Below are positions 1,289-54,390 of a stretch of DNA of 64,000 nucleotides, piece by piece. Made by a program: the position numbers and the translations under genes. The notes below the pieces were generated by a model. The model was given only the letters and a program-made list of their open reading frames with translations. It was not told the DNA's origin and searched no databases. Source of the stretch: Candidatus Hydrogenedens sp. (GTDB lineage Bacteria > Hydrogenedentota > Hydrogenedentia > Hydrogenedentales > Hydrogenedentaceae); the NCBI GenBank assembly GCA_049968235.1, contig JBMFRC010000012.1, positions 33,366-97,365 of the forward strand. Reading direction: 5' to 3'. The stretch's first letter is position 1. Each line of letters begins with the position of its first letter.

Positions 1289-2206
1289 ATGCAAAGAAGA
1301 GAACCTATATATTTAAATATTAATAAAGATAAAGAAGAAGAGTACCTTGAATGGGCAAGAAAATCTCTTCAAAATTGTTATGCATGTCCAAGACACTGTG
1401 GTGTTAATAGATATAAAAATCAATCGGGTCATTGTAAGATAGGTCAGTATGCACGAGTTTCAAGTGCTTTTCCTCACTTTGGGGAGGAATCGTGTTTAGT
1501 CGGTTGGCATGGTTCCGGTACAATTTTTTTTAGCGGATGTAATTTGAATTGTGTTTTTTGTCAAAATTATGAGATTAGCCAGTATCCATCAGGAGCGGAG
1601 TGTTCAGCAGAAATTATTGCAGAGATGATGTTAAACTTACAGTCTTTAGGTTGCCATAATATCAATCTTGTTACTCCTTCTCATGTAATTCCTCAAATTA
1701 TCGAAGTGCTGATTATTGCCAAACGAAGTGGATTACAAATCCCTATTGTTTATAACACAAATGCTTATGATAATATTGAATCATTAAAAATCCTTGAAAA
1801 CTGGATTGATATCTATATGCCTGATATAAAATATTGGGAAGAAGAAACAGCATGTAAATATTCGAATGCTAAAAATTATCCGGATATAGCAAAAGAGTCT
1901 ATAAAAGAGATGCATCGTCAGGTAGGAGATTTAATTATAAATTCTGATGGAATTGCTCAACGGGGATTATTGGTGAGGCATCTTGTGATGCCCGGATTAA
2001 TTCATGAAACGAAAGAGATTCTGAAATGGATAGCATCCGATATTTCTAAAAATACATATATTAATATCATGGGACAATACCGTCCCACATATAAAGTTCC
2101 TCATAATCCCTGTTATCTTAAAATTTCTCGAAGACCAATGCGTGAGGAAATTGAAGAAGTTATTCATTTTTCCAAATTATGTGGATTAACGAGAATTGCA
2201 GAATAA
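1289..2206 (+). CDS. Radical SAM protein, PflX-like (pyruvate formate-lyase activase homolog, COG1313 family)
   Basis: GCNLNCVFCQN gives the CxxxCxxC radical SAM motif. An N-terminal Cys cluster (CYACPRHCG) and a length of about 300 aa fit the PflX family. Confidence 0.65.
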   Translation: MQRREPIYLNINKDKEEEYLEWARKSLQNCYACPRHCGVNRYKNQSGHCKIGQYARVSSAFPHFGEESCLVGWHGSGTIFFSGCNLNCVFCQNYEISQYPSGAECSAEIIAEMMLNLQSLGCHNINLVTPSHVIPQIIEVLIIAKRSGLQIPIVYNTNAYDNIESLKILENWIDIYMPDIKYWEEETACKYSNAKNYPDIAKESIKEMHRQVGDLIINSDGIAQRGLLVRHLVMPGLIHETKEILKWIASDISKNTYINIMGQYRPTYKVPHNPCYLKISRRPMREEIEEVIHFSKLCGLTRIAE

Positions 2207-2247
2207 AAACCCCTTAAACACAAAGTATATTTAAGGGGTTTTTTTTT
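2205..2247. terminator. Bidirectional rho-independent terminator between convergent genes
   Basis: A 9-bp stem CCCCTTAAA (2210-2218) pairs with TTTAAGGGG (2230-2238) across an 11-nt loop. It is flanked by A5 upstream and T9 downstream, so it gives a U-tract on either strand. Confidence 0.7.
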
Positions 2248-2255
2248 CTGATTTT

Positions 2256-4478
2256 TTATCTTACATATTGTTTTCTGATATGTAATGCAGAACAGAAAGT
2301 CATTACACATACAATTAATACAATTGTTAATGTTGAACTAACAGGAACTTCATCTGAAATGATAACATGAAATTCATAAGTAGCATTGGTTTTCTGTCCA
2401 TCATCATATTCACAAATGTATATTCCTGTATCCTCAATTTGTGCGTTGGGAATCCAGAGGGAACGGCAATGAGTATTTAATCCTCTTTCTTCTAAACTAC
2501 CATTTAGTTTGGACCAATTAAATGAAGAATTCATAGATACAGGTTCCGGAACACGCAAGCATATATCAGACCCTGCTTTGAAAATTCCGCCCAATGTTGA
2601 AGAAGAATGGCATTCTTCACAATCCGAACCGGGATATACAACAGGATTTAATGCAGAATTAATATATGCCTGTTTTTTCTCTTCATAACTCATATGTGAA
2701 CGGACAAAATATTCATATTCCTGTTTATTTGTCCAGCCATCCCCATCCGCATCACCATCAGGACCGAAAAATTGAGGTAGAAGTTGATAGAAGGTAGGAA
2801 CAATGATATTTACATGTATATTGAAACTGGGGTCTATAGCCTGTGCTGCTATAGAAATTACAGTCGGTATCATCGTGGATTCTTGATTACCTAAGGTCAT
2901 GTATCCTGCTAACATTTGTGGCAAACCATAAAATATGGTATTTACGATACTTCCTTCACCACCACAGTCTGTAATCATTCGTTGCATGTTTTGGTTGAAA
3001 GCATTCACAGCAATTTGATGACTTATACCGCCATTGGCAGTAAAATCAATAGATGTATTGTTATAACATTCCGTGATAAGTGAAAATTCTAACGAATCTA
3101 ACATGCCATTTCCGGAAATAACAATAGGGTCTATAGATATTTGTCCACCATTCAAATCACATTCTTCAGGACTAAACGAAAGTCCTTCTGCTCCCTGGTC
3201 TCCTAATAAAACATAATATGCACTTAAATTTTCATGTAAATATTGCATACCTGCTACAATTTCATGGTCAGGTTGCCTTATAAAATCATGATACTCCCAA
3301 ACGCCGTTATAACAAAAATCTCCATTGCCTTCTGTATTTCCCGTGCCGGGTCCTCCTAATGGTTTTGAAGTGCTATCTACAATAGTATCATCATCAATTA
3401 CACAAAGTGTAACATTTCCTACTGCCCCTGCAGTATCTACAACCACATTGTAAACTTGATTACCCTGAACATTATTGACAGATAAGATAGAAAGGGGAGA
3501 GGATAAACTATCCTTTGCATTAAAATCAGATGTATCAACATTAGAAACAGGTTCACTAAAAGTTACAGAAAAAGTCATTGTATTTCCGTTAGAAGAAATA
3601 CTATTAATTAAATAAACTTTTGGATAATCCAACCATTGACTAATGAATTCCGACATGCATCTCTGGGCTAATATTTTATAACCTGCTTGAGATAAATGTA
3701 TATCCCCATCAAACAGTCCATCAGGATGAACTAATGAACATGGGTCTCCTCCGGGAAAAGGTGTATAGGTGGGATAATTACCTGGATAAGGGACAGAATG
3801 AGGGGGCAAATTTGTGGGAGTTGATGTCCCAAAATGATATTGCATTAACCCAAGATTATGAACATAATAAACTCGTGGCTTGCTATCTGCCAGAGCCTTT
3901 TTGGCTTGTTCAAATCTTACAAAAGCATTTTGCTGGTCACATATTGAACAACCACCACGGTCTCTGCCTGCAAAAGTATATCCACAAAGAGCAACGCGAA
4001 TATCGGGACGAACTGAAAGAATTTCATCAATAATACCACTCATATAATTTACAATCGTATTAATAATGTATTCTTCCTGGGATGGATTAGAAAGCATATC
4101 ACAATTCCAACGAGATGTTTGTGGAGTTCCTCGAAGGAAATCATTTCCTCCTAATGTTATCAATACAATATCAATTGTAGGATATTTTGCTAATTCTTCC
4201 TTTACATTTTGAATATAATTATATTCTTCAGGGTAAAATTCAAATGCTCGTGCTCCCATAATAGCAGTACGACTACCTATCTCTCTTAAATGTTCCATTC
4301 CAGGTGTTTCGTTAAAAATTTCTTTAAAGGTTCTAAATGCCCACATAAAACCAGTCCAACTATCACCGACTAATAGAACCCGTGGAATTTCCTCTTGAGA
4401 AAATGCAACAGAACTATCTATGAGAATAAGTAAAGATAAGAAACAAATCAAGAATAAACTTAAAATACTATGTTTCAT
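2256..4478 (-). CDS. Secreted multi-domain SGNH/GDSL-like hydrolase with C-terminal Ig-like region and hydrophobic anchor
   Basis: Signal peptide MKHSILSLFLICFLSLLILIDSSVA, then LLVGDSW (GDS block) and ITLGGNDF (GxND block) of SGNH hydrolases. The long C-terminal extension ends in a TM-like segment. Confidence 0.5.
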   Translation of the reverse strand: MKHSILSLFLICFLSLLILIDSSVAFSQEEIPRVLLVGDSWTGFMWAFRTFKEIFNETPGMEHLREIGSRTAIMGARAFEFYPEEYNYIQNVKEELAKYPTIDIVLITLGGNDFLRGTPQTSRWNCDMLSNPSQEEYIINTIVNYMSGIIDEILSVRPDIRVALCGYTFAGRDRGGCSICDQQNAFVRFEQAKKALADSKPRVYYVHNLGLMQYHFGTSTPTNLPPHSVPYPGNYPTYTPFPGGDPCSLVHPDGLFDGDIHLSQAGYKILAQRCMSEFISQWLDYPKVYLINSISSNGNTMTFSVTFSEPVSNVDTSDFNAKDSLSSPLSILSVNNVQGNQVYNVVVDTAGAVGNVTLCVIDDDTIVDSTSKPLGGPGTGNTEGNGDFCYNGVWEYHDFIRQPDHEIVAGMQYLHENLSAYYVLLGDQGAEGLSFSPEECDLNGGQISIDPIVISGNGMLDSLEFSLITECYNNTSIDFTANGGISHQIAVNAFNQNMQRMITDCGGEGSIVNTIFYGLPQMLAGYMTLGNQESTMIPTVISIAAQAIDPSFNIHVNIIVPTFYQLLPQFFGPDGDADGDGWTNKQEYEYFVRSHMSYEEKKQAYINSALNPVVYPGSDCEECHSSSTLGGIFKAGSDICLRVPEPVSMNSSFNWSKLNGSLEERGLNTHCRSLWIPNAQIEDTGIYICEYDDGQKTNATYEFHVIISDEVPVSSTLTIVLIVCVMTFCSALHIRKQYVR

Positions 4479-4628
4479 TTTTGTCTCCTTTTTATTTATG
4501 TTATGTAATAAAAAACAATAATTAAACTAAATAAATTATAGCAATAAAAAAAGAAAAAAATCAATAAAATATACTTAAGAGATATTTTTTTAATAAAAGA
4601 AAAAATTTTAATGAAAAGTATTTTAAAT

Positions 4629-4657
4629 TTGACAAGGAGTAAACAGTGTGCTATAAT
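4629..4657 (+). promoter_or_regulatory. Near-consensus sigma70 promoter (TTGACA-17nt-TATAAT) for rex-hydrogenase operon
   Basis: TTGACA at 4629-4634, a 17-nt spacer, and TATAAT at 4652-4657, lying 80 nt upstream of the rex ATG. Confidence 0.5.
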
Positions 4658-4675
4658 TTGTTCATAAATTCACAA
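4658..4675. promoter_or_regulatory. Rex operator-like inverted repeat 1 (TTGTTCATAAATTCACAA)
   Basis: An 18-nt palindrome-like site resembling the Rex box consensus TTGTGAAnnnnTTCACAA. It sits immediately after the -10 box, where a repressor would overlap the transcription start. Confidence 0.5.
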
Positions 4676-4701
4676 TTATACTTACAGGTAAGTATATAAA
4701 T

Positions 4702-4719
4702 TTGTTTGTAAATTCACAA
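4702..4719. promoter_or_regulatory. Rex operator-like inverted repeat 2 (TTGTTTGTAAATTCACAA)
   Basis: A second 18-nt site sharing the same half-sites (TTGT...TTCACAA), 26 nt downstream of site 1 and 18 nt before the rex ATG. Confidence 0.45.
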
Positions 4720-4736
4720 TTAAAAGTATAAAGTAT

Positions 4737-5432
4737 ATGGTATCTGAGAAAACAGTAGAAAGATTAAGTTTATACCGCCGAATACTTCAACAATTGAGGG
4801 TCGAGAGTAAAGAAACTATAATGTCCCATGAACTTGCGAATATGTTACACATAAAGCCAGCACAGGTACGCAGGGATATTATGCAATTAGGTTATTCAGG
4901 AATACCTAATAGTGGTTATAGAATTCGACCTCTTTTAGAGAGTATTGCAAATTTTTTAGATTCCCCGTTGCCTCAGAGTGCTGTTTTAGTAGGTGTTGGA
5001 CATTTAGGACTTGCGTTATTGGCTAACTTTGCAGGACGATGGAGGCAATTAGCTATTCGTGCCTCTTTTGATAAAGACCCTGCAAAAGTAGGACAGACTT
5101 TTCATGGTTGTCGTTGTTATGCTATGTGTGATTTGCAAAAAGTAATTGCGGAGACAAAAAGTGTAGTAGGCATCCTGGCAATACCGGGTGAAAGTGCCCA
5201 ATCTGTTTGTGACCTTCTTGTTCAGTCAGGTATTAGTGGCGTATTAAATTTTTCCCCATTGCGAATTAAAGTGCCTGATAATGTCTTTATAGAACATGTT
5301 GACCTTTCCGCTACGTTTGAAAAAGTTTCGTTCTTTGCAAGAAGAATGAAACATTATGCAGAAGAAGAAAAACGGAAAGTAGAAAATGAAATTACTGAGG
5401 GTGAATACGAAACATTAACAACCAATCAATAA
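4737..5432 (+). CDS. rex: Redox-sensing transcriptional repressor Rex (NADH/NAD+-responsive)
   Basis: N-terminal winged-helix with LSLYRRIL, then Rossmann GVGHLGLALLANF, then ILAIPGESAQSVCDLLVQSGISGVLNFSP. These are the canonical Rex blocks; the protein also has an acidic C-terminal tail. Confidence 0.85.
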   Translation: MVSEKTVERLSLYRRILQQLRVESKETIMSHELANMLHIKPAQVRRDIMQLGYSGIPNSGYRIRPLLESIANFLDSPLPQSAVLVGVGHLGLALLANFAGRWRQLAIRASFDKDPAKVGQTFHGCRCYAMCDLQKVIAETKSVVGILAIPGESAQSVCDLLVQSGISGVLNFSPLRIKVPDNVFIEHVDLSATFEKVSFFARRMKHYAEEEKRKVENEITEGEYETLTTNQ

Positions 5433-5458
5433 ATAAAAAATTTTGTAGGAGATAGAAT

Positions 5459-5983
5459 ATGAATGAAGAATCAAAGCATGCGTGTATGGAAGAAGCAAGT
5501 GAAGAAGAACTGCTTGCTCGGCTTGATGAAGTAATTGCAGAATATAAGGACAAGCCCGGTGCTCTTATTCCTGTTCTGCAGATTGCTCAGGCTATGTTTG
5601 GTTATCTACCCGAAAGTGCATTAAAAAAGATTAGTTTGGGACTGAACAAACCGTATAGTGAAGTTGCAGGTGTGGTAACATTTTACTCATTCTTTTCAAC
5701 CCAGCCTCGTGGAAAACATATGATTCGTGTCTGTTTAGGAACTGCTTGTTATGTCCGTGGTGGCAAACAGGTTCTTTCTGCAATTAAGGATAAACTCCAT
5801 ATTGATGTTGGAGAGACCACGAAAGACCGTATGTTCTCTTTAGAGGTGGCTCGTTGTTTTGGTGCTTGTGGGCTTGCTCCTGCCATTATGGTGGATAACG
5901 ATGTGCATCAACGGGTAAAACCTGCCCGAATTCAGGCTATTTTAGACCAGTATTTAGACAAAAACACAGAAAAAAATAAATAA
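5459..5983 (+). CDS. hndA: NuoE-like [2Fe-2S] subunit of multimeric [FeFe] hydrogenase (HndA/HydC-like)
   Basis: Thioredoxin-like 2Fe-2S fold with the Cys pattern CLGTACYVRGG ... CFGACGLAPA, typical of NuoE/HoxE/HydC. A good RBS (TAGGAGATAGAAT-ATG) precedes the start. Confidence 0.8.
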   Translation: MNEESKHACMEEASEEELLARLDEVIAEYKDKPGALIPVLQIAQAMFGYLPESALKKISLGLNKPYSEVAGVVTFYSFFSTQPRGKHMIRVCLGTACYVRGGKQVLSAIKDKLHIDVGETTKDRMFSLEVARCFGACGLAPAIMVDNDVHQRVKPARIQAILDQYLDKNTEKNK

Positions 5984-6005
5984 GAAATAAATAAGGAGAA
6001 AAGCC

Positions 6006-6377
6006 ATGTCAAATATTATTCATTCTCCAGAAGACCTTAATGCTTTACGAGAAAAGGCAATTAAGGACATTGAGATTCGTAATTCACATAAAGATTTGGT
6101 GATTACTGTTCACATGGGAACATGTGGTATTGCTGCGGGTGCCAGAGAAGTATTAAAAAATATCATCTCTGAAATTTCTGCTATAGGTATAACCAATGTT
6201 ACAGTCCGTCAATCTGGATGTGCAGGTCTCTGCGACCGTGAACCCATGATTACGGTTACTCATAAATCCTCCGGTTCTGAATATCGTTATGGAAAATTAA
6301 ACACGGAAAAGATACGAGAAATTGTGAAACAGCATATTGCAGAAGGTAAACCTGTGATGGAATATTTAATTTCCTGA
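6006..6377 (+). CDS. hndB: Thioredoxin-like [2Fe-2S] ferredoxin (HndB-like small hydrogenase subunit)
   Basis: 123 aa with cysteine motifs HMGTCGIAAGA and CAGLCDREP of 2Fe-2S Trx-like ferredoxins. It sits between the NuoE-like and NuoF-like genes, as in hnd operons. Confidence 0.7.
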   Translation: MSNIIHSPEDLNALREKAIKDIEIRNSHKDLVITVHMGTCGIAAGAREVLKNIISEISAIGITNVTVRQSGCAGLCDREPMITVTHKSSGSEYRYGKLNTEKIREIVKQHIAEGKPVMEYLIS

Positions 6378-6460
6378 TGAAGAAATACAGGGTAAATTCG
6401 GATTCCCATAAAGTGGTTGAGATGAACATGTATAGCAAAATAAGAAAGAATGATATAGAA

Positions 6461-7906
6461 ATGAAAATGAACATATTACATCTATTTCTTATTTTATTTT
6501 TATGTTCATCCGCAACCTTTACTGAAATATCTGATTGGGAAACCATCTCACTTTCGGATACAGGAGAAGCATTACAAAATCCCGGCATGGGATGGGTATT
6601 ACATTTTTACGATAATGTTCCTGAAAATTATGGTTCTAAATTAGCCCCTTCAGATACTGTTGATGAATTCCCTGCCCTTTCAGTTATTTATTTGCGAATA
6701 GCATGGTCGTTTTTAGAACCTGAAGAAGGAAAGTATAACTGGTCTATATTGGATACTCCTTCTCAACGATGGATTTCTAAAGGGAAACAAATTGCTTTGC
6801 GCATTACCTGTAGTGAAACTCCTATTCCATGGGCGACACCAAAATGGGTTTATGAAGCAGGAGCCAAAGGTAATTTCTTCATTCCTACCCAGGGGATAAA
6901 AGAAAATGGGACACATTGGGAACCCGAATTTGATGACCCTGTTTTCTTGGATAAGTTGGATAATTTTTTAGCAGTGTTAGCAAAGAGATATGATGAAAAT
7001 CCGGAAATAGCCTTCATAGATATGGGTTCATTAGGAGTGTGGGGAGAAGGTCATGTATGGCATTCCACACAAAAACATATTTCGACGGAAACCATAAAAA
7101 AACACATTGATTTGCACATAAAGCACTTTAAAAACACAATAATTGCTCTAAATGATGACCTTATCACAAATGGGCAAAAATTGGATGTAATTCCCGAAGA
7201 GAAAAAAGAACTCCTCAATTATGCTATCAAAAATGGGTTAACACTTCGCGATGATAGTATTCTTGTTCAGGGTGGAGATAATGTATATTTTAGTGCAAGC
7301 CTTGCGGAATACTTCTGGCGAAATAGACCTATCATTTTAGAATCTGAACATTATGGACCATCAAAGGCTGAAAGGCATTGGGGGGACGGAAGTAAATATT
7401 TACAGGCTGTAGAAGATTACCATGCAAGTTATACTTCTATTCATTGGTGGCCAAGGGAGTTTTTACAAGAAAACAAAGATTTGATAGATAAAATCAATCT
7501 TCGTTTGGGGTATCGTATTGTCCCTACCGAAGTTAAATGGCAAAAGACAGTAAAAATATCCGAGAAAAAATGGGATATATCCTACCGTTGGGCAAATAAA
7601 GGAGTGGCACCTTGTTATCGGGATGTATATCCCATTATTACATGGAAAGATGAGAAAGGAGGAATTGTTGCTGTTTTTACAGATGAGACATTTAATCTCA
7701 AACAATTACCAATAGGGAAGCAGGATGAATTAAAAGAAATTGAGGTAAAAAAATCTTTTTTTATTCCTTTTTTATTGAAAGAAGGAAATTATACAGTATT
7801 CATTTCAGCGGGTTCTATTACGGGCACGCCTGAAATTCAATTACCGTTAAACAACACAGACCATGAAAAAAGATATGTTATAGGTAAAGTTAATGTTGTT
7901 TTGTGA
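6461..7906 (+). CDS. Secreted TIM-barrel glycoside hydrolase-like protein (GH42/GH35-like N-terminal motif; DUF4832-like)
   Basis: Signal peptide MNILHLFLILFLCSSATF. AWSFLEPEEGKYNW matches the GH42/GH35 W-x-x-LEP-x-x-G-x-Y motif, and GSLGVWGEGH matches GH42-like blocks. The most likely start is internal, at the MKMNILH methionine at 6461. Confidence 0.5.
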   Translation: MKMNILHLFLILFLCSSATFTEISDWETISLSDTGEALQNPGMGWVLHFYDNVPENYGSKLAPSDTVDEFPALSVIYLRIAWSFLEPEEGKYNWSILDTPSQRWISKGKQIALRITCSETPIPWATPKWVYEAGAKGNFFIPTQGIKENGTHWEPEFDDPVFLDKLDNFLAVLAKRYDENPEIAFIDMGSLGVWGEGHVWHSTQKHISTETIKKHIDLHIKHFKNTIIALNDDLITNGQKLDVIPEEKKELLNYAIKNGLTLRDDSILVQGGDNVYFSASLAEYFWRNRPIILESEHYGPSKAERHWGDGSKYLQAVEDYHASYTSIHWWPREFLQENKDLIDKINLRLGYRIVPTEVKWQKTVKISEKKWDISYRWANKGVAPCYRDVYPIITWKDEKGGIVAVFTDETFNLKQLPIGKQDELKEIEVKKSFFIPFLLKEGNYTVFISAGSITGTPEIQLPLNNTDHEKRYVIGKVNVVL

Positions 7907-7977
7907 AAAAAAATATAAAGATATAAATAAAAACTTCAGAAATGAAGCATACACAAGTTATGGAAAGGAGAAAAAAA

Positions 7978-10900
7978 ATGAGTCCATTTCGAAGTCATGT
8001 ATTAATCTGTGCAGGTGCAGGATGCGTGGCATCAGGTTCGATGGAAGTAAGTTCCGCCTTTTCGGAGGCACTTGCCAAACATGGGCTAAATGAAGAAATT
8101 CAAGTAGTCCATACAGGATGTTTAGGACCCTGTGCTATTGGTCCCGTGGTCGTGATTTATCCAGATGCTATTTTTTATCAAGGTGTTAAAACAACAGATG
8201 TTGAAGATATTGTTGTTGAGCATCTGTTAAAAGGTCGGCCTGTTAGTCGCTTGAATTTCAAATCTACTACCACATCACAAATTATTCCTGCACTGCAGGA
8301 GATTGGTTTTTTCAAGCAACAGACAAAGATAGTTTTAAGGAACTGTGGTATTATAGACCCTACAAAAATTGAGGAGTATATTGCGAGAGATGGGTATCAG
8401 GCTTTAGCAAAAGTACTGACAAAAATGACTCCACAGCAGGTAGTAGAAGAAGTGAAAAAATCTGGACTTCGGGGAAGAGGTGGTGCAGGATTCCCAACAG
8501 GTATAAAGTGGGAGTTAACTCAAAAAGCCCACGGAGATAAGAAATATGTTCTTTGTAATGCTGATGAAGGTGACCCGGGCGCATTTATGGACAGAAGTGT
8601 TTTGGAAGGTGACCCCCATAGTGTTATTGAAGCTATGATTATAGCAGGATATGCCATTGGTTCTGACCAGGGATATATTTATGTTCGAGCAGAATATCCT
8701 TTAGCGGTAGAGAGATTAAATATAGCGATAAAGCAAGCCAGAGAATATGGTTTGTTAGGTAAGAATATTATGGGAACGAATTTTAATTTCGACCTTGAAA
8801 TACGAATGGGTTCAGGTGCTTTTGTGTGTGGAGAAGAAACCGCATTGATGCGTTCTATCGAAGGGAAACGCGGAGAACCCAGACCCCGTCCACCGTTCCC
8901 TGCATATAAAGGTTTATGGGAAAAACCCAGTTTATTAAATAATGTAGAAACCTATGCAAACATCCCTGTAATTATATTAAAAGGTGCTGATTGGTTTGCT
9001 TCCATAGGAACAGGTAAAAGTAAAGGAACAAAAGTGTTTGCCTTAGCAGGTGCTGTAAACAACACAGGATTGGTCGAAATTCCGATTGGTACACCATTAG
9101 GTGAAATTATTTATGATATTGGCGGTGGAATTCCGCGAGGCAAACAATTTAAGGCAGCGCAAATTGGAGGTCCTTCCGGCGGTTGTATTCCAAAACAACA
9201 TCTGAATGTGCCGGTAGATTACGAGTCATTACAGGAATTAGGAGCGATTATGGGTTCCGGTGGATTAATTGTTATGGATGAAGACACATGTATGGTCGAT
9301 ATGGCTCGTTTCTTCCTTGACTTTGTTCAGGATGAGTCATGTGGAAAATGTGTCCCATGCCGGGTCGGAACGAAAAGAATGTTGGAAATTGTGACAAGGA
9401 TTTGTGAGGGTCGGGGAGAAGAAGGCGATATTGAAAAACTTATTGAATTAGGACAACAGATTAAAGATGCATCGTTATGTGGATTAGGGCAGACAGCTCC
9501 AAACCCTGTTCTTTCTGCAATACGGCACTTCCGTGATGAATTTGAAATTCATATTCGTGAACATAAATGTCCGGCGGGTGTCTGTCCATCTCTTGTTCGT
9601 GCTCCTTGTATGAGTGCTTGCCCGGCAAATGTTTACATTCCGGGTTTTGTCTCATTAATATCTGAAAAACGATATGCGGAAGCACTTCGTGTGCATCGTG
9701 ACCAGAACCCCTTTGCATCTGTATGTGCCCGTGTGTGTTTCCATACTTGTGAGGACAAATGTAGAAGAGCTACTCTGGATGAAGCGGTATCCATACGCGG
9801 ATTGAAGCGATTTATGGTAGAGCAAGAAGTTACAATACAACTACCTGAAATTCGTGAAAATGAACAAAATCTTCGCAAAAAGGTGGCTATTATAGGAGCA
9901 GGTCCTGCAGGTCTAACCTGTGCTTATTTCCTTGCACGATTAGGCTATCAACCCCGTGTTTTTGAATCTGCACCCAGGCCCGGCGGTATGTTAGTTCAAA
10001 CAATTCCCGCTTATCGGTTACCCCGAGAAGAATTGGCTCGAGAAATTCGTATGATAGAAAGAATGGGCGTTGTCATAGAAACTGAAAAAGCCTTAGGTCG
10101 TGATTTTACATTACAAAGCCTTCGTGATGATGGATATGAGGCTATTTTTCTCGGAATAGGTGCTCCATCAGGTCAAAAATTGAGAATTCCAGGCGAAGAT
10201 GCGGATGGCGTTGTCGAAGCCATAGACTTCCTTCGTGAATACAATCTCCGTGGTTCTGTTCCTGTAGGGAAAAATGTTGTTATTATAGGAGGTGGTAATG
10301 CAGCTATTGATGCGGCAAGAACTGCCATTCGTTTAGGAGCAAAAAAAGCAACGATTCTTTACCGCAGAACAAGAGAAGAGATGCCTGCGTATAAAGAAGA
10401 GATCGAAGAAGCAGTTAATGAAGGTGTTATTTTAAAAATGTTAGTAACTCCACTGGAGATTTTGACAGAAAACGGAAAAGTTGTTGGTGTAAAATGTCAA
10501 CACATGTGGTTAGGAGAATATGACCGTTCCGGTAGAAGAAGACCTGAAGCCAAAAAGGGTGAAGAACCCTTTGTTGAAGAAGCAGACCAGGTTATTGCAG
10601 CAATAGGGCAAACTGTTGATTTAAAACGTTACCTGGATGGATTAAATGTTAAGTTAACACCTTCTGGTTTCTTGTGGGTAGACCAATTATATGGTCAGAC
10701 CTCTATTGAATGGTTATTTGCAGGTGGTGATATTAGTTCAGGTCCTTCTTCCGTAGCAGAAGCAATCGGTGCTGGTGAAAGAGCTGCAGTTGGAATTGAT
10801 AAGTATCTTACTGGAGAAGAACATGCTTTCTGGCGCGAACCCTATATGGTAGATACAGAATTTGACCCAGATTCCGACCCGGTAGATTTCCCAAGAGCAA

Positions 10901-11049
10901 AAATGAAACTTTTACCTGTTGAAAAGAGGGTACACAACTTTAATGAAGTTGAAATCCCGTTTACGGAAACATTAGCGGTAAGAGAGGCACGCCGTTGCTT
11001 ACGTTGTGATTATCGTGAAACAAAAATAAGTTTAAATACACAACAATAA
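7978..11049 (+). CDS. hndC: Fusion flavoprotein: HndC/HydB (NuoF-like, FMN/NADH, Fe-S) + GltD/NfnB-like FAD/NAD(P)H oxidoreductase domain
   Basis: The N-terminal Trx-like 2Fe-2S domain is CAGAGC...CLGPC. The NuoF blocks are GLRGRGGAGFPTGIKW, CNADEGDPGAF and 4Fe-4S CGKCVPCRVG. From about residue 540 come the GltD-like Fe-S region (CPAGVCP...CMSACP), FAD site VAIIGAGPAGLTCAY and NAD(P)H site VVIIGGGNAAIDAA. I chose the start at MSPFRSH (7978) because it has a GGAAAGGAG RBS. Confidence 0.8.
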   Translation: MSPFRSHVLICAGAGCVASGSMEVSSAFSEALAKHGLNEEIQVVHTGCLGPCAIGPVVVIYPDAIFYQGVKTTDVEDIVVEHLLKGRPVSRLNFKSTTTSQIIPALQEIGFFKQQTKIVLRNCGIIDPTKIEEYIARDGYQALAKVLTKMTPQQVVEEVKKSGLRGRGGAGFPTGIKWELTQKAHGDKKYVLCNADEGDPGAFMDRSVLEGDPHSVIEAMIIAGYAIGSDQGYIYVRAEYPLAVERLNIAIKQAREYGLLGKNIMGTNFNFDLEIRMGSGAFVCGEETALMRSIEGKRGEPRPRPPFPAYKGLWEKPSLLNNVETYANIPVIILKGADWFASIGTGKSKGTKVFALAGAVNNTGLVEIPIGTPLGEIIYDIGGGIPRGKQFKAAQIGGPSGGCIPKQHLNVPVDYESLQELGAIMGSGGLIVMDEDTCMVDMARFFLDFVQDESCGKCVPCRVGTKRMLEIVTRICEGRGEEGDIEKLIELGQQIKDASLCGLGQTAPNPVLSAIRHFRDEFEIHIREHKCPAGVCPSLVRAPCMSACPANVYIPGFVSLISEKRYAEALRVHRDQNPFASVCARVCFHTCEDKCRRATLDEAVSIRGLKRFMVEQEVTIQLPEIRENEQNLRKKVAIIGAGPAGLTCAYFLARLGYQPRVFESAPRPGGMLVQTIPAYRLPREELAREIRMIERMGVVIETEKALGRDFTLQSLRDDGYEAIFLGIGAPSGQKLRIPGEDADGVVEAIDFLREYNLRGSVPVGKNVVIIGGGNAAIDAARTAIRLGAKKATILYRRTREEMPAYKEEIEEAVNEGVILKMLVTPLEILTENGKVVGVKCQHMWLGEYDRSGRRRPEAKKGEEPFVEEADQVIAAIGQTVDLKRYLDGLNVKLTPSGFLWVDQLYGQTSIEWLFAGGDISSGPSSVAEAIGAGERAAVGIDKYLTGEEHAFWREPYMVDTEFDPDSDPVDFPRAKMKLLPVEKRVHNFNEVEIPFTETLAVREARRCLRCDYRETKISLNTQQ

Positions 11050-11066
11050 TAAAAGGAGAATAAGCC

Positions 11067-12839
11067 ATGCCAAAATTAACTATAGATGGAATTCCCGTAG
11101 AAGTTCCGGAAGGAACAACAATACTTCAAGCGGCAAAGCAAATAGGATTAAAAATACCGACACTTTGTTATCTTGAAGAAGTTCAAGCCATCGGTGCCTG
11201 TCGTGTTTGCGTTGTTGAAGTTGAAGGAGCACGAACTTTGGTCGCTTCTTGTGTTGCTCCTGTTGCGGAAGGAATGAAAGTCCATACAAATTCAAAAAGA
11301 GCCCGTGAGGCACGAAAAACAGTTGTAGAATTGTTACTATCCGACCATGATGGCGATTGCCAGATTTGTGTTCGAAATGAAGATTGTGAACTTCAGGAAT
11401 TGGCACGAACACTTGGGATAAAGGAAATTCGCTATCAAGGTGAGAAGAGAAAACGGATTGTGGATGAAAGCACTCCCGCTGTTGTTCGTGATACATCGAA
11501 ATGTGTCTTATGTAGAAGATGTATAACGGTTTGCAATGAGGTTCAGGGTGTTGGCGGACTGTTCCCACAAAATCGTGGCTTTGAAACGGTAATAGGTCCC
11601 GCATTTTGTAGTGATTTGGATGATGTCGTATGTGTTCAGTGTGGTCAATGTAGTGCGGTTTGTCCTGTGGGTGCTATTGTAGAAAGAGACCAGATTGCGG
11701 ATGTCTTTTCTGCATTAGATGACCCGACAAAAACAGTCGTTGTCCAGACAGCCCCTGCAATTCGTGCCGCATTGGGAGAATGTTTTGGTTTACCACCCGG
11801 AACTTTAGTAACAGGGAAGATGGTTACCGCACTTCGTAGACTGGGTTTCCATGCCGTTTTTGATACTAACTTTGCCGCTGACCTTTGTATTATGGAAGAA
11901 GGTACAGAACTGCTAACTCGATTGAAGAAAAAACTGGTAGATGGGGAGAATATTGCTCTTCCTATGTTTACCAGTTGTTCTCCGGGGTGGATTAAGTTTT
12001 TAGAACATTTCTACCCGGATATGATTCCAAATGTATCTACATGCAAATCCCCACAGCAAATGTTTGGTGCTATAGCAAAGACCTATTATTCCAAGAAAAT
12101 TGGTAAGAAACCCGAAGATATTGTTGTTGTTTCTATTATGCCCTGTACAGCGAAGAAATATGAACATCAGCGTCCCGAGATGAACAGTTCCGGTGTTCGT
12201 GATGTGGACTATGTGCTTACAACGCGTGAATTGGGTCGGATGATAAAACAGGCAGGCATTGATTTTGTAAATCTACCCGATGACAAGCAAGACTCACCAT
12301 TAGGACTATCCTCTGGTGCTGCGGATATTTTTGCGAATACCGGGGGTGTTATGGAAGCGGCAATTCGAACTGTTTATGAAATAGTAACAGGACGCGAATT
12401 ACCATTCGATGGACTTCATGTTGCTCCTATCGAAGGATTAGAAGGAATCAAGGAAGCCTCCTTGAAGATAGAAAAATGTGTGCCTGAATGGTCTTTCTTA
12501 GAAGGGGCTACCGTAAATGTTGCTGTGGCTCATGGATTGGGTAATGCCAGAGCATTAATAGAGCGAGTTCGCTCAGGTGAAAAGGCGTATCACTTTATAG
12601 AAATTATGACCTGTCCCGGTGGATGTATTGGTGGAGGAGGACAACCTCGCTTTACAGATAATTCAGTTCGTCTTGCTCGTATTCAGGCCATATACAAAGA
12701 GGATGAAGGGAAACAACTTCGTAAGTCCCATGTAAATCCTGACATACAAAAATTGTATAAGGAATTTTTAGGACATCCGAATAGTGAAGTTTCACATCAT
12801 CTATTACATACGCATTACAATCCGAGAACAAAAGTATAA
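11067..12839 (+). CDS. hydA: [FeFe]-hydrogenase catalytic subunit (HydA/HndD) with N-terminal 2Fe-2S and 4Fe-4S ferredoxin domains; non-canonical L1 motif TSCSPGW
   Basis: The N-terminal plant-type 2Fe-2S is CYLEE...CRVC, and the 4Fe-4S Fd motifs are CVLCRRCITVC and CVQCGQCSAVCP. For the H-cluster, L2 is MPCTAKKYE and L3 is EIMTCPGGCIGGGGQP, both canonical. L1 reads FTSCSPGW where TSCCPxW is expected. Confidence 0.9.
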   Translation: MPKLTIDGIPVEVPEGTTILQAAKQIGLKIPTLCYLEEVQAIGACRVCVVEVEGARTLVASCVAPVAEGMKVHTNSKRAREARKTVVELLLSDHDGDCQICVRNEDCELQELARTLGIKEIRYQGEKRKRIVDESTPAVVRDTSKCVLCRRCITVCNEVQGVGGLFPQNRGFETVIGPAFCSDLDDVVCVQCGQCSAVCPVGAIVERDQIADVFSALDDPTKTVVVQTAPAIRAALGECFGLPPGTLVTGKMVTALRRLGFHAVFDTNFAADLCIMEEGTELLTRLKKKLVDGENIALPMFTSCSPGWIKFLEHFYPDMIPNVSTCKSPQQMFGAIAKTYYSKKIGKKPEDIVVVSIMPCTAKKYEHQRPEMNSSGVRDVDYVLTTRELGRMIKQAGIDFVNLPDDKQDSPLGLSSGAADIFANTGGVMEAAIRTVYEIVTGRELPFDGLHVAPIEGLEGIKEASLKIEKCVPEWSFLEGATVNVAVAHGLGNARALIERVRSGEKAYHFIEIMTCPGGCIGGGGQPRFTDNSVRLARIQAIYKEDEGKQLRKSHVNPDIQKLYKEFLGHPNSEVSHHLLHTHYNPRTKV

Positions 12840-12858
12840 GATAAGATTTAATAATAAA

Positions 12859-12882
12859 GGGGAGTGTGAGTGAGCACTCCCC
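12859..12882 (+). terminator. GC-rich hairpin after hydA (possible weak terminator/attenuator)
   Basis: GGGGAGTG-tgagtgag-CACTCCCC forms an 8-bp stem 20 nt after the hydA stop codon, but no U-tract follows it. Confidence 0.25.
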
Positions 12883-12964
12883 ATACAATCCTATGAAGTT
12901 GTATAATAGGAATATAGGTAGGAGTAAGTAGGTTTATGAGTGTCTAATATTTAGGAAAGAAAAA

Positions 12965-13360
12965 ATGGAAAATAAAATTATAATGGTCGTTGATGATGAT
13001 ATTGATGTTCAGGATTTCTGTAAAATTGTATTAGGAAGAGAGGATTATCAGGTTATAACATTTTCCAACTCAGAGAGTGCACTCGAATATTTATCGTCGA
13101 ACACTCCCTCTGTAATTATTACCGATTTAATGATGGGTGGAATTGATGAGGGTGTCCAATTTGTTAATAAGATTAGAGGATTCGATAATGAGAAGGCAAA
13201 AATTCCAATTATAATGATTACAGGCATAAATTCAAAATTAGGATATGACATCACTCCCCGTTCCGATGAAGAAAAAAAACAAATGAAAATCGATGAATTT
13301 ATATCAAAACCTTTAAATCCAAAACAGTTAATAACAGCACTAAAAAAAGTAATCAAATAG
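12965..13360 (+). CDS. Single-domain response regulator (CheY-like receiver only)
   Basis: 131 aa with acidic pocket VVDDD, a phospho-acceptor in SVIITDLMMGG and a conserved K in FISKP. There is no output domain. Confidence 0.75.
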   Translation: MENKIIMVVDDDIDVQDFCKIVLGREDYQVITFSNSESALEYLSSNTPSVIITDLMMGGIDEGVQFVNKIRGFDNEKAKIPIIMITGINSKLGYDITPRSDEEKKQMKIDEFISKPLNPKQLITALKKVIK

Positions 13361-13412
13361 AAATTTGTTTCGTATAGATACTGTTTAATTTATAAATATA
13401 AGGAAATGAGTT

Positions 13413-14810: not shown

Positions 14811-14815
14811 ATCTT

Positions 14816-16237: not shown

Positions 16238-16246
16238 GAAGGAAAT

Positions 16247-54330: not shown

Positions 54331-54390
54331 GCTATAATAAAAAATTCTATTTATTGTAATTATATAAACAATAACTATCACTTCTACATT

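What the first reader, a model, noticed from the sequence alone, without database searches (positions are those of the whole stretch)
4620..4740. Near-consensus sigma70 promoter followed by two Rex-box-like inverted repeats ahead of rex-hnd
TTGACA, 17 nt, then TATAAT at 4629-4657 is a textbook promoter. Directly after it come TTGTTCATAAATTCACAA (4658-4675) and TTGTTTGTAAATTCACAA (4702-4719). Both share the TTGT/TTCACAA half-sites of the Rex operator consensus TTGTGAAnnnnTTCACAA and sit where a repressor would block initiation and elongation. With rex as the first gene, this predicts NADH/NAD+-dependent autoregulated control of the hydrogenase operon, as known for Rex regulons in Firmicutes and Thermotogae.
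Basis: partly seen in the sequence, partly recalled or inferred. Interest (0 to 1): 0.55.

Follow-up and report, generated by a model that had tools for sequence, protein, structure and literature searches.

The report
Rex-repressed promoter of a hydrogenase operon
This is the promoter and operator region of a redox-sensor gene (rex) and the hydrogenase operon it heads in an uncultured Hydrogenedentota bacterium; it is an ordinary, well-known kind of switch, but it also holds a third, strictly conserved palindrome that nobody can yet explain.

Summary
TTGACA-17-TGcTATAAT lies at 4629-4657 and is the only 12/12 promoter match in the window. Two Rex-box-like repeats lie at 4658-4675 and 4702-4719, 17 nt before rex.

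On sequence alone the boxes are only modestly unlikely. Shuffles of this intergenic region gave two or more such sites with P=0.002. Comparison settles it. In 37 rex leaders from Hydrogenedentota (Rex identity 46-94%, GC 35-64%) the promoter hexamers and Box 1 are kept while the surrounding bases are not. Box 2 is kept throughout the AT-rich Hydrogenedens clade.

The gene is a bona fide Rex, and it keeps the Arg-Arg pair that reads the operator. The downstream genes encode the "sub-type I BfuABCD" [FeFe] hydrogenase.

The best reading is NADH/NAD+-controlled autorepression of rex-bfu. This is a known mechanism in a phylum where it has not been described, and binding itself remains untested.

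It occurs in 37 of 37 rex leaders and nowhere else in 339 kb. It is absent from bfu operons that lack rex. It matches no Rfam family and no published sequence. Its partner is unknown.

The parts
4629..4634 (+). -35 hexamer TTGACA of the rex-bfu promoter
   Evidence: Read. It belongs to the only 12/12 promoter match in the window. It is 100% identical across 10 AT-rich-clade leaders, while the spacer is 33% identical. The GC-rich clade has TTGCAT/TTGCAA at the same place.
4649..4657 (+). Extended -10 element TGcTATAAT
   Evidence: TG before the second hexamer. TGnTATAAT or TGnTATAGT was found 16-18 nt after the -35 in 33 of the 37 leaders; the script found no promoter in the other four (two lack upstream sequence). 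Identity is 0.84. The inferred transcription start is near A4664; this is an inference, not a mapped site.
4658..4675 (.). Box 1 (proposed Rex operator O1), TTGTTCATAAATTCACAA; abuts the -10 and spans the inferred start site
   Evidence: It has 2 mismatches to TTGTGAANNNNTTCACAA. It is present in all 37 leaders as TYGTT-N6-TTCACRA, 0-11 nt after the -10. Half-site identity is 0.90 and 0.98 against 0.67 for the centre. Position 2 and its dyad partner tend to change together: TTGT..ACAA in 9, TCGT..ACGA in 9, mixed in 8.
4678..4695 (.).
   Evidence: It is the only exact match in the window. It occurs in 37 of 37 Hydrogenedentota rex leaders, and only one other one-mismatch hit exists in 339 kb. 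The arms are almost invariant from 35% to 64% GC while the flanks cannot be aligned. One pair covaries: C-G 11, T-A 11, T-G 2, other 1. The RNA hairpin is weak, -2.6 to -7.8 kcal/mol. There is no Rfam match and no literature match. It is absent from rex-less bfu operons.
4702..4719 (.). Box 2 (proposed Rex operator O2), TTGTTTGTAAATTCACAA; about +39 to +56 of the inferred transcript, 17 nt before the rex ATG
   Evidence: It has 3 mismatches to the consensus. It is conserved in every AT-rich-clade leader, 44-45 bp after Box 1 (40 bp in the L005 lineage). Half-site identity is 0.75 and 0.97 against 0.53 for the centre and 0.33 for the next 17 nt. It has no canonical counterpart in the GC-rich clade.
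4737..5432 (+). rex, redox-sensing transcriptional repressor (231 aa)
   Evidence: NCBIfam Rex NF003995 scores 192 bits against a cutoff of 126. Pfam finds PF06971 and PF02629. Solved Rex structures match at E=3e-33 to 4e-26. The motif A42-Q-V-R45-R46-D47 aligns with the base-reading Ala47/Arg50/Arg51 of S. agalactiae Rex. The GxGxxG motif is invariant.
5459..5983 (+). NuoE/HndA-like [2Fe-2S] subunit (BfuC)
   Evidence: PF01257, E=1.9e-51. It starts 26 nt after the rex stop, with an AGGAG ribosome-binding site.
6006..6377 (+). HndB-like small [2Fe-2S] subunit (BfuD)
   Evidence: Weak PF01257 match. Conserved position in all loci.
6377..7906 (+). DUF4832/GH42-like protein with an N-terminal hydrophobic signal-like segment, inserted inside the hydrogenase operon
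   Evidence: PF16116 and PF02449. Present only in the AT-rich clade and absent in L008, L011, L012, L042 and L043.
7942..11049 (+). NuoF-like subunit fused to a GltD/DPD-like FAD/NAD(P) module (BfuB, sub-type I)
   Evidence: PF01512, PF10589, PF14691 and PF07992. This architecture is described for Hydrogenedentota in PMC11406978.
11067..12839 (+). [FeFe] hydrogenase catalytic subunit (BfuA/HydA)
   Evidence: NCBIfam NF040763 'NADH-dependent [FeFe] hydrogenase, group A6' scores 907 bits against a cutoff of 765. Pfam finds PF02906 and PF02256.

Best explanation
The segment 4629-4719 is the sigma-70-type promoter and operator region of an autoregulated rex-bfuCD(B)A operon in a Candidatus Hydrogenedens-like bacterium.

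Shown by the sequence and by comparison:
- The promoter is consensus, with an extended -10.
- Box 1 abuts the -10 and covers the inferred start site (about -6 to +12).
- A conserved palindrome lies at about +15 to +32.
- Box 2 lies at about +39 to +56.
- All four elements are under purifying selection.
- The first gene encodes a Rex that keeps the DNA-reading Arg-Arg pair and the NAD(H)-binding Rossmann motif.

Inferred from established Rex biology:
- When NADH/NAD+ is low, Rex dimers occupy Box 1 and Box 2. At Box 1 they block RNA polymerase binding or open-complex formation. At Box 2 they act as a second operator or roadblock, possibly cooperatively with Box 1, 44 bp away.
- When NADH rises, NADH-bound Rex leaves the DNA.
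- The cell then makes more Rex together with the NAD(H)-linked [FeFe] hydrogenase, which disposes of reducing equivalents as H2. The negative feedback resets the system.

The palindrome is a further, independent cis-element specific to rex leaders of this phylum. Its arm sequence, rather than merely its pairing, is conserved across a large GC range. I therefore think it is most likely a sequence-specific protein-binding site, an operator for an unidentified dimeric regulator acting on the DNA. This last step is a weak inference.
For: Sequence and statistics.

Gene identities.

Phylogenetic footprint:
- 12 genome loci, 24 metagenome loci of which 20 carry the architecture, and 4 further loci were examined.
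- All 37 Hydrogenedentota leaders have Box 1 and the palindrome, in the order promoter, Box 1, palindrome; the script located the promoter hexamers in 33 of them.
- Per-element identity is: -35 1.0, spacer 0.33, -10 0.84, Box 1 halves 0.90 and 0.98, Box 2 halves 0.75 and 0.97, following 17 nt 0.33.

Rex DNA-reading residues:
- Arg50 and Arg51 of S. agalactiae Rex contact G5 and G7 of the operator (PMC8376106).
- They align with the invariant R45 and R46 here.

Precedent:
- The consensus is TTGTGAANNNNTTCACAA.
- Rex binds upstream of [FeFe]-hydrogenase genes and hydG and autoregulates in C. bescii, shown by EMSA (PMC6391272).
- TTGTTAA-type sites occur at hfs, hydG and ech, and there are two sites at adhE, in T. 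saccharolyticum (PMC5886521).
- A Rex site is predicted at hnd in S. fructosivorans (PMC10084766).

Rex-like boxes also precede sub-type I bfu operons in other phyla that have no adjacent rex.

Palindrome.
Against: - No binding, transcription-start or expression data exist for this organism.
- The left half-sites (TTGTTCA, TTGTTTG) lack the second G that Arg51 reads in the canonical site. Box 2 has 3 of 14 mismatches.
- Consensus-level hits with 3 or fewer mismatches are not enriched in the window as a whole.
- No second Rex target was found in 64 kb, so a regulon is unproven.
- The wing residue that makes a minor-groove base contact in S. agalactiae Rex (Arg62) is Pro57 here, invariant in the clade. 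Specificity may therefore differ in detail.
- Box 2 has no canonical equivalent in the GC-rich clade.
- For the palindrome, nothing identifies the binding partner. The data do not separate a DNA operator from an RNA hairpin: T.G intermediates occur in 3 lineages, but C.A, A.G and G.A mismatches occur as well.
Confidence: 0.8

Rival explanations
1. The conserved leader elements act in the transcript rather than on DNA. In this view the palindrome forms a hairpin in the 5' untranslated region. The hairpin could be extended by pairing of Box 1's right half with Box 2's left half. It would control mRNA stability, processing or translation of rex, or be bound by an RNA-binding protein.
For: - The palindrome always lies downstream of the inferred start site and in the same orientation.
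- One pair switches between T-A and C-G, and three lineages carry T.G, which pairs in RNA only on this strand.
- The local hairpin folds better than shuffles in some loci, with z of -2.9 to -1.9.
- rex lacks a Shine-Dalgarno sequence in the AT-rich clade.
Against: - The hairpin is weak, at -2.6 to -7.8 kcal/mol. It is indistinguishable from shuffles in L004, L025 and L030.
- The whole leader folds no better than shuffles (z=0.11).
- The consensus fold of 13 GC-rich leaders finds only these 6 pairs, with a covariation term of 0.04.
- Only 1 of 7 pairs ever covaries and the other arm positions are essentially invariant (five show no or only one or two changes; the outermost pair is unpaired in 15 of 25 sequences). 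This points to sequence recognition, not structure.
- C.A, A.G and G.A mismatches are tolerated.
- No Rfam family matches.
- This rival does not explain the conservation of Box 1 upstream of and across the start site.
Confidence: 0.12
2. Boxes 1 and 2 are operators for a regulator other than Rex that happens to recognise a similar AT-rich dyad. One example is an ArgR-type ARG box, TNTGAATWWWWATTCANW (recalled from memory).
For: - The right halves, AAATTCACAA, fit both motifs.
- The left halves deviate from the Rex consensus at positions 5-7.
- Nothing in the window proves which protein binds.
Against: - The conserved outer bases are TYGT...ACRA, the hallmark of Rex sites, and they tend to change symmetrically.
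- The sites sit in front of rex itself in 37 of 37 loci.
- Similar boxes precede the same hydrogenase operon in other phyla.
- Rex control of hydrogenase and rex genes is experimentally established elsewhere.
- ARG boxes normally occur as adjacent pairs (from memory). These two are 26 bp apart edge to edge.
Confidence: 0.04
3. The boxes are chance matches in an AT-rich intergenic region, and only the promoter is functional.
For: - Hits with 3 or fewer mismatches to the Rex consensus are as frequent in the window as in shuffles (6 against 8.8).
- At least one such site arises in 7% of shuffles of this intergenic region.
Against: - Two non-overlapping sites arise in only 0.24% of shuffles.
- Exact TTGT-N7-TTCACAA is expected 0.07 times per window and occurs twice, 44 bp apart.
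- The half-sites are 75-98% identical across relatives whose neighbouring bases are 33% identical. Box 1 survives at 46-55% Rex identity and up to 64% GC.
Confidence: 0.01

Closest known systems
Rex operators (ROP) and rex autoregulation in Firmicutes and Actinobacteria, e.g. Caldicellulosiruptor bescii Rex (PMC6391272) and Staphylococcus aureus Rex (PMC2883068)
   Same: - An 18-bp dyad of the TTGTGAA-N4-TTCACAA type overlaps the core promoter.
- The repressor gene is itself a target.
- [FeFe]-hydrogenase structural genes are targets.
- The protein has the same two-domain architecture and the same Arg-Arg reading pair.
   Different: - The phylum differs: Hydrogenedentota is not mentioned in connection with Rex in the phylum's own hydrogenase survey (0 occurrences).
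- The left half-sites are TTGTTCA or TCGTTTA rather than TTGTGAA.
- The wing Arg is replaced by Pro.
- rex is fused into the hydrogenase operon as its first gene.
- An extra conserved palindrome sits between the two operators.
Clostridial/Thermoanaerobacter-type Rex sites TTGTTAA-N4-TTAACAA (T. saccharolyticum predictions, PMC5886521)
   Same: - The left halves here (TTGTTCA, and TTGTTAA in L004, L005 and L013) are of this T-at-position-5 type.
- Targets include hfs [FeFe] hydrogenase and hydG.
- Two sites at one promoter occur at adhE.
   Different: - The right halves here are the canonical TTCACAA, so the sites are hybrids.
- No Rex site was found before hydG in this window.
Sub-type I BfuABCD electron-bifurcating-type [FeFe] hydrogenase of Hydrogenedentota (PMC11406978)
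   Same: The gene order is C-D-B-A, with BfuB carrying a DPD_II domain plus an FAD/NAD(P) domain. L008 comes from the very genome used as the example in that paper.
   Different: - That paper does not discuss rex or any promoter element.
- The AT-rich clade carries an extra DUF4832/GH42-like gene between bfuD and bfuB.
Hnd/HydABC operons with a predicted Rex site (Solidesulfovibrio fructosivorans hnd, PMC10084766)
   Same: An NAD(H)-linked multimeric [FeFe] hydrogenase is predicted to be under Rex control.
   Different: There rex is not the first gene of the operon, and only a single predicted site is mentioned.
CsoR/RcnR-family operators (ATACC-N8-GGTAT / TACT-N7-AGTA type; recalled from memory only)
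   Same: The palindrome reads ATACC-N8-GGTAT in the GC-rich clade and ATACT-N8-AGTAT in the AT-rich clade.
   Different: - It has no G/C tract in the centre.
- No CsoR-like gene was seen in any fetched sequence (a crude motif screen).
- The resemblance is untested and may be fortuitous.

Membership tests
Rex family repressor (protein at 4737-5432) | Matches a curated Rex model above its cutoff | tested here: met
   NF003995 scores 192.4 bits against a cutoff of 126, and NF003994 scores 175 against 130.
Rex family repressor (protein at 4737-5432) | N-terminal winged-helix DNA-binding domain plus C-terminal Rossmann NAD(H) domain with GxGxxG | tested here: met
   PF06971 covers residues 2-48 and PF02629 covers 81-174. 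G86, G88 and G91 are invariant in 13 relatives. The protein aligns end to end with the solved Rex structures 2vt2, 3keo, 1xcb and 3wg9.
Rex family repressor (protein at 4737-5432) | Recognition-helix residues that read the operator (Ala47, Arg50, Arg51 in S. agalactiae Rex) | tested here: met
   They align with A42, R45 and R46. Q43-V-R-R-D47 is invariant in the clade.
Rex family repressor (protein at 4737-5432) | Wing arginine making the minor-groove base contact (Arg62 in S. agalactiae Rex) | tested here: not met
   It aligns with Pro57, which is invariant in the clade within the motif G55-x-P57-x-x-G60-Y61. This is a detail of one structure rather than a family-defining residue, but it may shift specificity.
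Rex family repressor (protein at 4737-5432) | DNA binding released by NADH | not testable with these tools
   Needs EMSA or footprinting with purified protein, with and without NADH and NAD+.
Rex operator (ROP) | 18-bp inverted repeat matching TTGTGAA-N4-TTCACAA | tested here: met
   Box 1 matches 12 of 14 specified positions and Box 2 matches 11 of 14. The right halves are perfect, and the left halves keep TTGT only.
Rex operator (ROP) | Located in or overlapping the core promoter of a redox or fermentation target | tested here: met
   Box 1 starts at the base after the -10. The target is rex plus an NAD(H)-linked hydrogenase.
Rex operator (ROP) | Conserved in orthologous promoters (the criterion of comparative regulon reconstruction) | tested here: met
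   Box 1 is present in 37 of 37 leaders. Box 2 is present in all AT-rich-clade leaders.
Rex operator (ROP) | Bound by Rex in vitro or in vivo | not testable with these tools
Sigma-70-type promoter | -35 and -10 hexamers with 16-18 nt spacing, conserved in relatives | tested here: met
   The match is 12/12 with an extended -10 TG. The hexamers are conserved and the spacer is not. The transcription start is not mapped.
Known RNA families (Rfam 15) for the leader and palindrome | Covariance-model match | tested here: not met
   Only noise hits, at E=6.6 and 3.1 and far below the gathering scores.
CsoR/RcnR-type operator (for the palindrome) | AT-rich inverted arms flanking a G/C tract, with a cognate DUF156 regulator | tested here: inconclusive
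   The arm pattern resembles the family, but there is no G/C tract. No CsoR-like motif appears in the six-frame translation of the window and loci. The regulator could lie anywhere in the genome.

The most novel reading that the evidence does not exclude
The palindrome TACYTA-N4-TARGTA may be the operator, or the RNA target, of a so far unknown factor that co-controls rex expression throughout Hydrogenedentota. That would make the rex leader a composite switch integrating a second signal with NADH/NAD+. The most unconventional variant the data do not exclude is that Rex itself, a Rossmann-fold protein, recognises this hairpin in its own mRNA. The evidence is as follows.

- The element is present in 37 of 37 rex leaders and absent from 339 kb of other Hydrogenedentota DNA.
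- It is absent from the same hydrogenase operon in phyla where rex is not the first gene.
- Its arm sequence is kept from 35% to 64% GC.
Probability: 0.4. Interest if true: 0.55.

Novelty: new member of a known kind. Interest (0 to 1): 0.33.

Why it matters
Hydrogenedentota are uncultured, globally distributed fermenters and syntrophs. Their unusual hydrogenases were catalogued only recently (PMC11406978), with nothing said about how they are controlled.

This locus gives a concrete, testable regulatory model. The sub-type I Bfu hydrogenase is switched on by a rising NADH/NAD+ ratio through an autoregulated Rex encoded as the first gene of the operon. That would fit an H2-producing, NADH-disposing role for the enzyme.

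The locus also supplies a phylum-specific Rex motif, TYGTT-N6-TTCACRA, for regulon reconstruction in metagenome-assembled genomes.

The mechanism itself is textbook, so the result is confirmatory rather than surprising. The only open question of wider interest is the invariant palindrome, which hints at a second, unidentified input.

Tried and rejected
1. Further Rex sites in the window. A matrix scan found nothing above the shuffle level; the best other hit scored 14.0 bits at 54354, equal to the mean best score of shuffles.

2. Rfam search of the leader in the window and in a GC-rich relative. Only noise hits appeared.

3. A larger structured leader RNA. The 82-nt leader folds no better than shuffles (z=0.11). 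RNAalifold on 13 GC-rich leaders returns only the 6-bp palindrome stem, with no covariation.

4. A second copy of the palindrome half-sites, TAGGTA-GGAG-TAAGTA at 12915-12930 before the response-regulator gene.
   - It looked promising, because it is the only other half-site pair at offset 10 in the window.
   - In L040, however, the second half is TATGTA.
   - In L041 the same TAGGTAGGAG is simply the ribosome-binding site of another gene.
   - I rejected it as an SD-rich remnant.

5. A CsoR/RcnR-like regulator gene. A motif screen of all six frames of the window and loci found none. This is uninformative about the rest of the genome.

6. A literature search for six variants of the palindrome sequence returned 0 papers.

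7. Whether the palindrome travels with the hydrogenase operon. It does not. Six sub-type I bfu operons without adjacent rex lack it (L037-L039 and L044-L046; two are named Phycisphaerae or Planctomycetota, the rest unnamed), though most have Rex-like boxes.

8. CsrA-type GGA motifs, alternative promoters within the palindrome and a leader peptide were considered by eye and dropped. They lack conserved GGA, -10/-35 spacing or start codons.

9. Ravcheev et al. 2012 (PMC3294762) could not be read. The consensus is therefore cited through PMC6391272.
Full report
**Observation**

- TTGACA lies at 4629-4634, followed by 17 nt and TATAAT at 4652-4657. A TG at 4649-4650 makes it an extended -10.
- Box 1, TTGTTCATAAATTCACAA, lies at 4658-4675.
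- Box 2, TTGTTTGTAAATTCACAA, lies at 4702-4719.
- The next ATG, at 4737, opens a 231-aa ORF.
- The promoter is the only 12/12 match in 2000-16500 and the only zero-mismatch match in the window.

**Is it more than chance?**

Against TTGTGAANNNNTTCACAA the boxes have 2 and 3 mismatches. At that threshold the window holds 6 hits against 8.8 expected. The consensus match alone is therefore not evidence.

Other measures are stronger.
- The two boxes are the only exact TTGT-N7-TTCACAA matches in 64 kb, where 0.07 are expected.
- Dinucleotide shuffles of the 258-nt intergenic region give at least one site in 7% of trials. They give at least two non-overlapping sites in 0.24%.
- A matrix from related sites scores the boxes at 27.1 and 23.2 bits. 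The next hit scores 14.0, the level of shuffles.

**Genes**

- The ORF at 4737-5432 is Rex. NCBIfam NF003995 scores 192 bits against a cutoff of 126. Pfam finds PF06971 and PF02629. Solved Rex structures match at E=3e-33 to 4e-26.
- After Rex come, in order, a NuoE-like subunit, an HndB-like ferredoxin, a DUF4832/GH42-like protein and a 1035-aa NuoF-GltD/DPD fusion.
- The cluster continues with a [FeFe] hydrogenase (NF040763, 907 bits), a receiver-only response regulator, HydG, an aspartase-like protein and HydF.
- No terminator-like site lies between rex and the next gene.
- The hydrogenase is the "sub-type I BfuABCD" described for Hydrogenedentota in PMC11406978. That paper never mentions Rex.

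**Origin and relatives**

The Rex protein retrieves 12 genome loci, all Hydrogenedentota or unclassified MAGs. The closest is Candidatus Hydrogenedens terephthalaticus at 94% identity. A profile of these retrieves 24 metagenome loci. Four more loci came through BfuB homologues.

In every one, rex is followed by the same hydrogenase genes. GC content ranges from 35% to 64%.

**Phylogenetic footprint**

All 37 Hydrogenedentota leaders show the same order of elements.
- First comes a -35 (TTGACA or TTGCAT/A), 16-18 nt, then TGnTATAAT or TGnTATAGT.
- Box 1 (TYGTT-N6-TTCACRA) follows 0-11 nt later.
- A palindrome with core TACYTA-N4-TARGTA follows Box 1.

The AT-rich clade comprises the window, L001-7, L013-20, L040 and L041. 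In it, Box 2 follows 44-45 bp after Box 1 (40 bp in one lineage).

Identity to the window across 10 AT-rich leaders is as follows.

| Element | Identity |
|---|---|
| -35 | 1.0 |
| Spacer | 0.33 |
| -10 | 0.84 |
| Box 1 left half, centre, right half | 0.90, 0.67, 0.98 |
| Palindrome 5' arm, centre, 3' arm | 1.0, 0.72, 0.92 |
| Box 2 left half, centre, right half | 0.75, 0.53, 0.97 |
| Next 17 nt | 0.33 |

Conserved half-sites around a variable centre are the signature of dyad operators. In Box 1, position 2 and its dyad partner tend to change together: TTGT..ACAA in 9, TCGT..ACGA in 9, mixed in 8.

In the GC-rich clade the rest of the 110-240-nt leader cannot be aligned.

**Does the protein fit the site?**

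In the S. agalactiae Rex-DNA structure, Arg50 and Arg51 of the recognition helix read G5 and G7 of the operator. Ala47 makes water-mediated contacts, and Arg62 of the wing reads an adenine in the minor groove (PMC8376106).

The HMMER alignment places A42, R45 and R46 of the window protein at the first three positions. Q43-V-R-R-D47 is invariant in the clade. The wing Arg corresponds to an invariant Pro57.

The right half-sites (the complement of TTCACAA is TTGTGAA) offer both guanines. The left halves (TTGTTCA, TTGTTTG) offer only the first. The same is true of the TTGTTAA-type sites of Thermoanaerobacterium (PMC5886521).

**Mechanism**

- Shown: a conserved consensus promoter; a conserved Rex-type dyad across the inferred start site (about -6 to +12 if transcription starts near A4664); a second dyad at about +39 to +56; and a Rex gene as first cistron.
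- Inferred from established Rex biology: with low NADH/NAD+, Rex occupies the operators and blocks initiation. The downstream site acts as an auxiliary operator or roadblock. NADH releases Rex, and rex and the NAD(H)-linked hydrogenase are then co-expressed under negative feedback.
- The precedent for this inference is the set of EMSAs on hydrogenase and rex promoters in C. bescii (PMC6391272).

Rex-like boxes also precede sub-type I bfu operons in Phycisphaerae, Planctomycetota and unnamed lineages that lack an adjacent rex. L037 has three at 40-41-nt spacing, and single boxes occur in L038, L044, L045 and L046. The link between Rex and this hydrogenase is therefore older than the gene fusion of rex into the operon.

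**The third element**

ATACTTA-CAGG-TAAGTAT lies at 4678-4695 between the boxes.
- It is the only exact match in the window.
- It is present in 37 of 37 Hydrogenedentota rex leaders. Only one other one-mismatch hit, inside a gene, occurs in 339 kb.
- It lies 20 nt after the start of Box 1 in the AT-rich clade and 33-49 nt after it in the GC-rich clade. It is therefore not phased with Box 1.
- Five of the six core pairs keep the same bases, with no or only one or two exceptions. One pair switches between T-A (11) and C-G (11), with T.G in 2 and C.A in 1. Further variants carry A.G or G.A mismatches.
- As RNA the hairpin is weak, at -2.6 to -7.8 kcal/mol, and sometimes no better than shuffles.
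- The consensus fold of 13 leaders finds only this stem, with no covariation support.
- Rfam has no match, and the sequence occurs in no searchable paper.
- It is absent from a sister group of rex leaders (L033-36, 42-52% identity in the matched segment). Those have two adjacent TTAAC-type boxes instead.
- It is absent from rex-less bfu operons.

Sequence conservation, rather than pairing conservation, across a 30-point GC range argues for sequence-specific recognition. I favour a DNA operator for an unidentified dimeric regulator, but an RNA target cannot be excluded.

A resemblance to CsoR/RcnR-type operators (ATACC-N8-GGTAT) is from memory only. A crude screen found no such gene in the fetched DNA.

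**Leads that failed**

- A second half-site pair at 12915-12930 turned out to be a Shine-Dalgarno-rich remnant.
- No further Rex site exists in the window.

**Verdict**

This is a new member of a well-known kind: an autoregulated Rex operator-promoter controlling a hydrogenase, in a phylum where it had not been described. The one unexplained feature is the invariant palindrome.

Noticed in passing
window 4678-4695: The palindrome ATACTTA-CAGG-TAAGTAT lies between the two Rex boxes. Its core TACYTA-N4-TARGTA is present in 37 of 37 Hydrogenedentota rex leaders and essentially nowhere else in 339 kb. It matches no Rfam family and no published sequence, and its partner is unknown.
   Followed up: yes
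window 6377-7906: A gene for a DUF4832/GH42-like protein with a hydrophobic signal-like N-terminus sits inside the cytoplasmic hydrogenase operon, between bfuD and bfuB. It is present in all AT-rich-clade loci (482-494 aa) and absent in GC-rich Hydrogenedentota and other phyla. This is an odd passenger for such an operon.
   Followed up: partly
window 4737-5432 (Rex residues 55-61 and 124-127): Two clade-specific features stand out. The wing reads G-x-P-(N/H)-x-G-Y, where other Rex proteins have G-(R/K)-(R/K)-G-x-G-Y, so the minor-groove Arg is lost. A G-C-x-C motif (C125, C127) is invariant in 13 relatives and absent from B. subtilis Rex. One metagenome relative (L021) lacks the first Cys.
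   Followed up: partly
window 4720-4736: rex has no Shine-Dalgarno sequence in the AT-rich clade (TTAAAAGTATAAAGTAT before the ATG). The next gene has AGGAG. Several GC-rich relatives have a conserved TTCAGGA before rex.
   Followed up: no
L010, L011, L021-L023, L030, L032 (8-10 nt after the palindrome): The GC-rich clade has a further conserved block, CATAACTTTTGTTyGCCATrCTwAAC. It is a GTTyr-N6-yrAAC dyad and a perfect 12-bp inverted repeat in L032. It looks like a Rex box with half-sites 2 bp further apart. It may be the counterpart of Box 2.
   Followed up: partly
L037 5717-5815; L038 2053; L044 4831; L045 3930; L046 3135; L039 2340-2360: Sub-type I bfu operons without an adjacent rex still carry Rex-like boxes upstream (L037 Phycisphaerae, L038 Planctomycetota, and the unnamed L044-L046). 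L037 has three at 40-41-nt spacing. L039 instead shows a sigma-54-type TGGCAT-N5-TTGCT promoter, with an enhancer-binding protein gene nearby.
   Followed up: partly
window 12859-12882 and 12902-12947: After hydA comes a G+C-rich hairpin (GGGGAGTG...CACTCCCC), then TATAAT, then TAGGTAGGAGTAAGTAGG and a 3-codon mini-ORF (ATGAGTGTCTAA). The mini-ORF is conserved as ATGGGTGTTTAA in L040. It looks like the remnant of the start of the gene that occupies this place in L041.
   Followed up: partly
window 12965-13360: A receiver-only response regulator (131 aa, no output domain) directly follows the hydrogenase gene. The same arrangement occurs in Phycisphaerae and Planctomycetota loci (L037-L039), where PHP, HATPase_c and, in L038 and L039, HydS-like sensor genes precede the operon instead of rex.
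   Followed up: no
window 4535-4564 (minus strand): A conserved divergent promoter, TTGATT-18-TGcTATAAT, serves the upstream GDSL-lipase-like gene (2256-4478). It is 71% identical across relatives and does not overlap the Rex boxes.
   Followed up: no
window 14816-16237: An aspartate-ammonia-lyase/fumarase-like gene is embedded between hydG and hydF. The same pairing (Lyase_1 next to HydF) occurs in L038 and L040.
   Followed up: no
L021 (~60 nt before the -35), L022/L023 (~120 nt before the promoter): Additional Rex-type boxes lie upstream of the promoter in some GC-rich relatives: TCGTTACTGGATTCACGT and TCGTTTCTTGATTCACTA. They suggest multi-operator arrangements.
   Followed up: no
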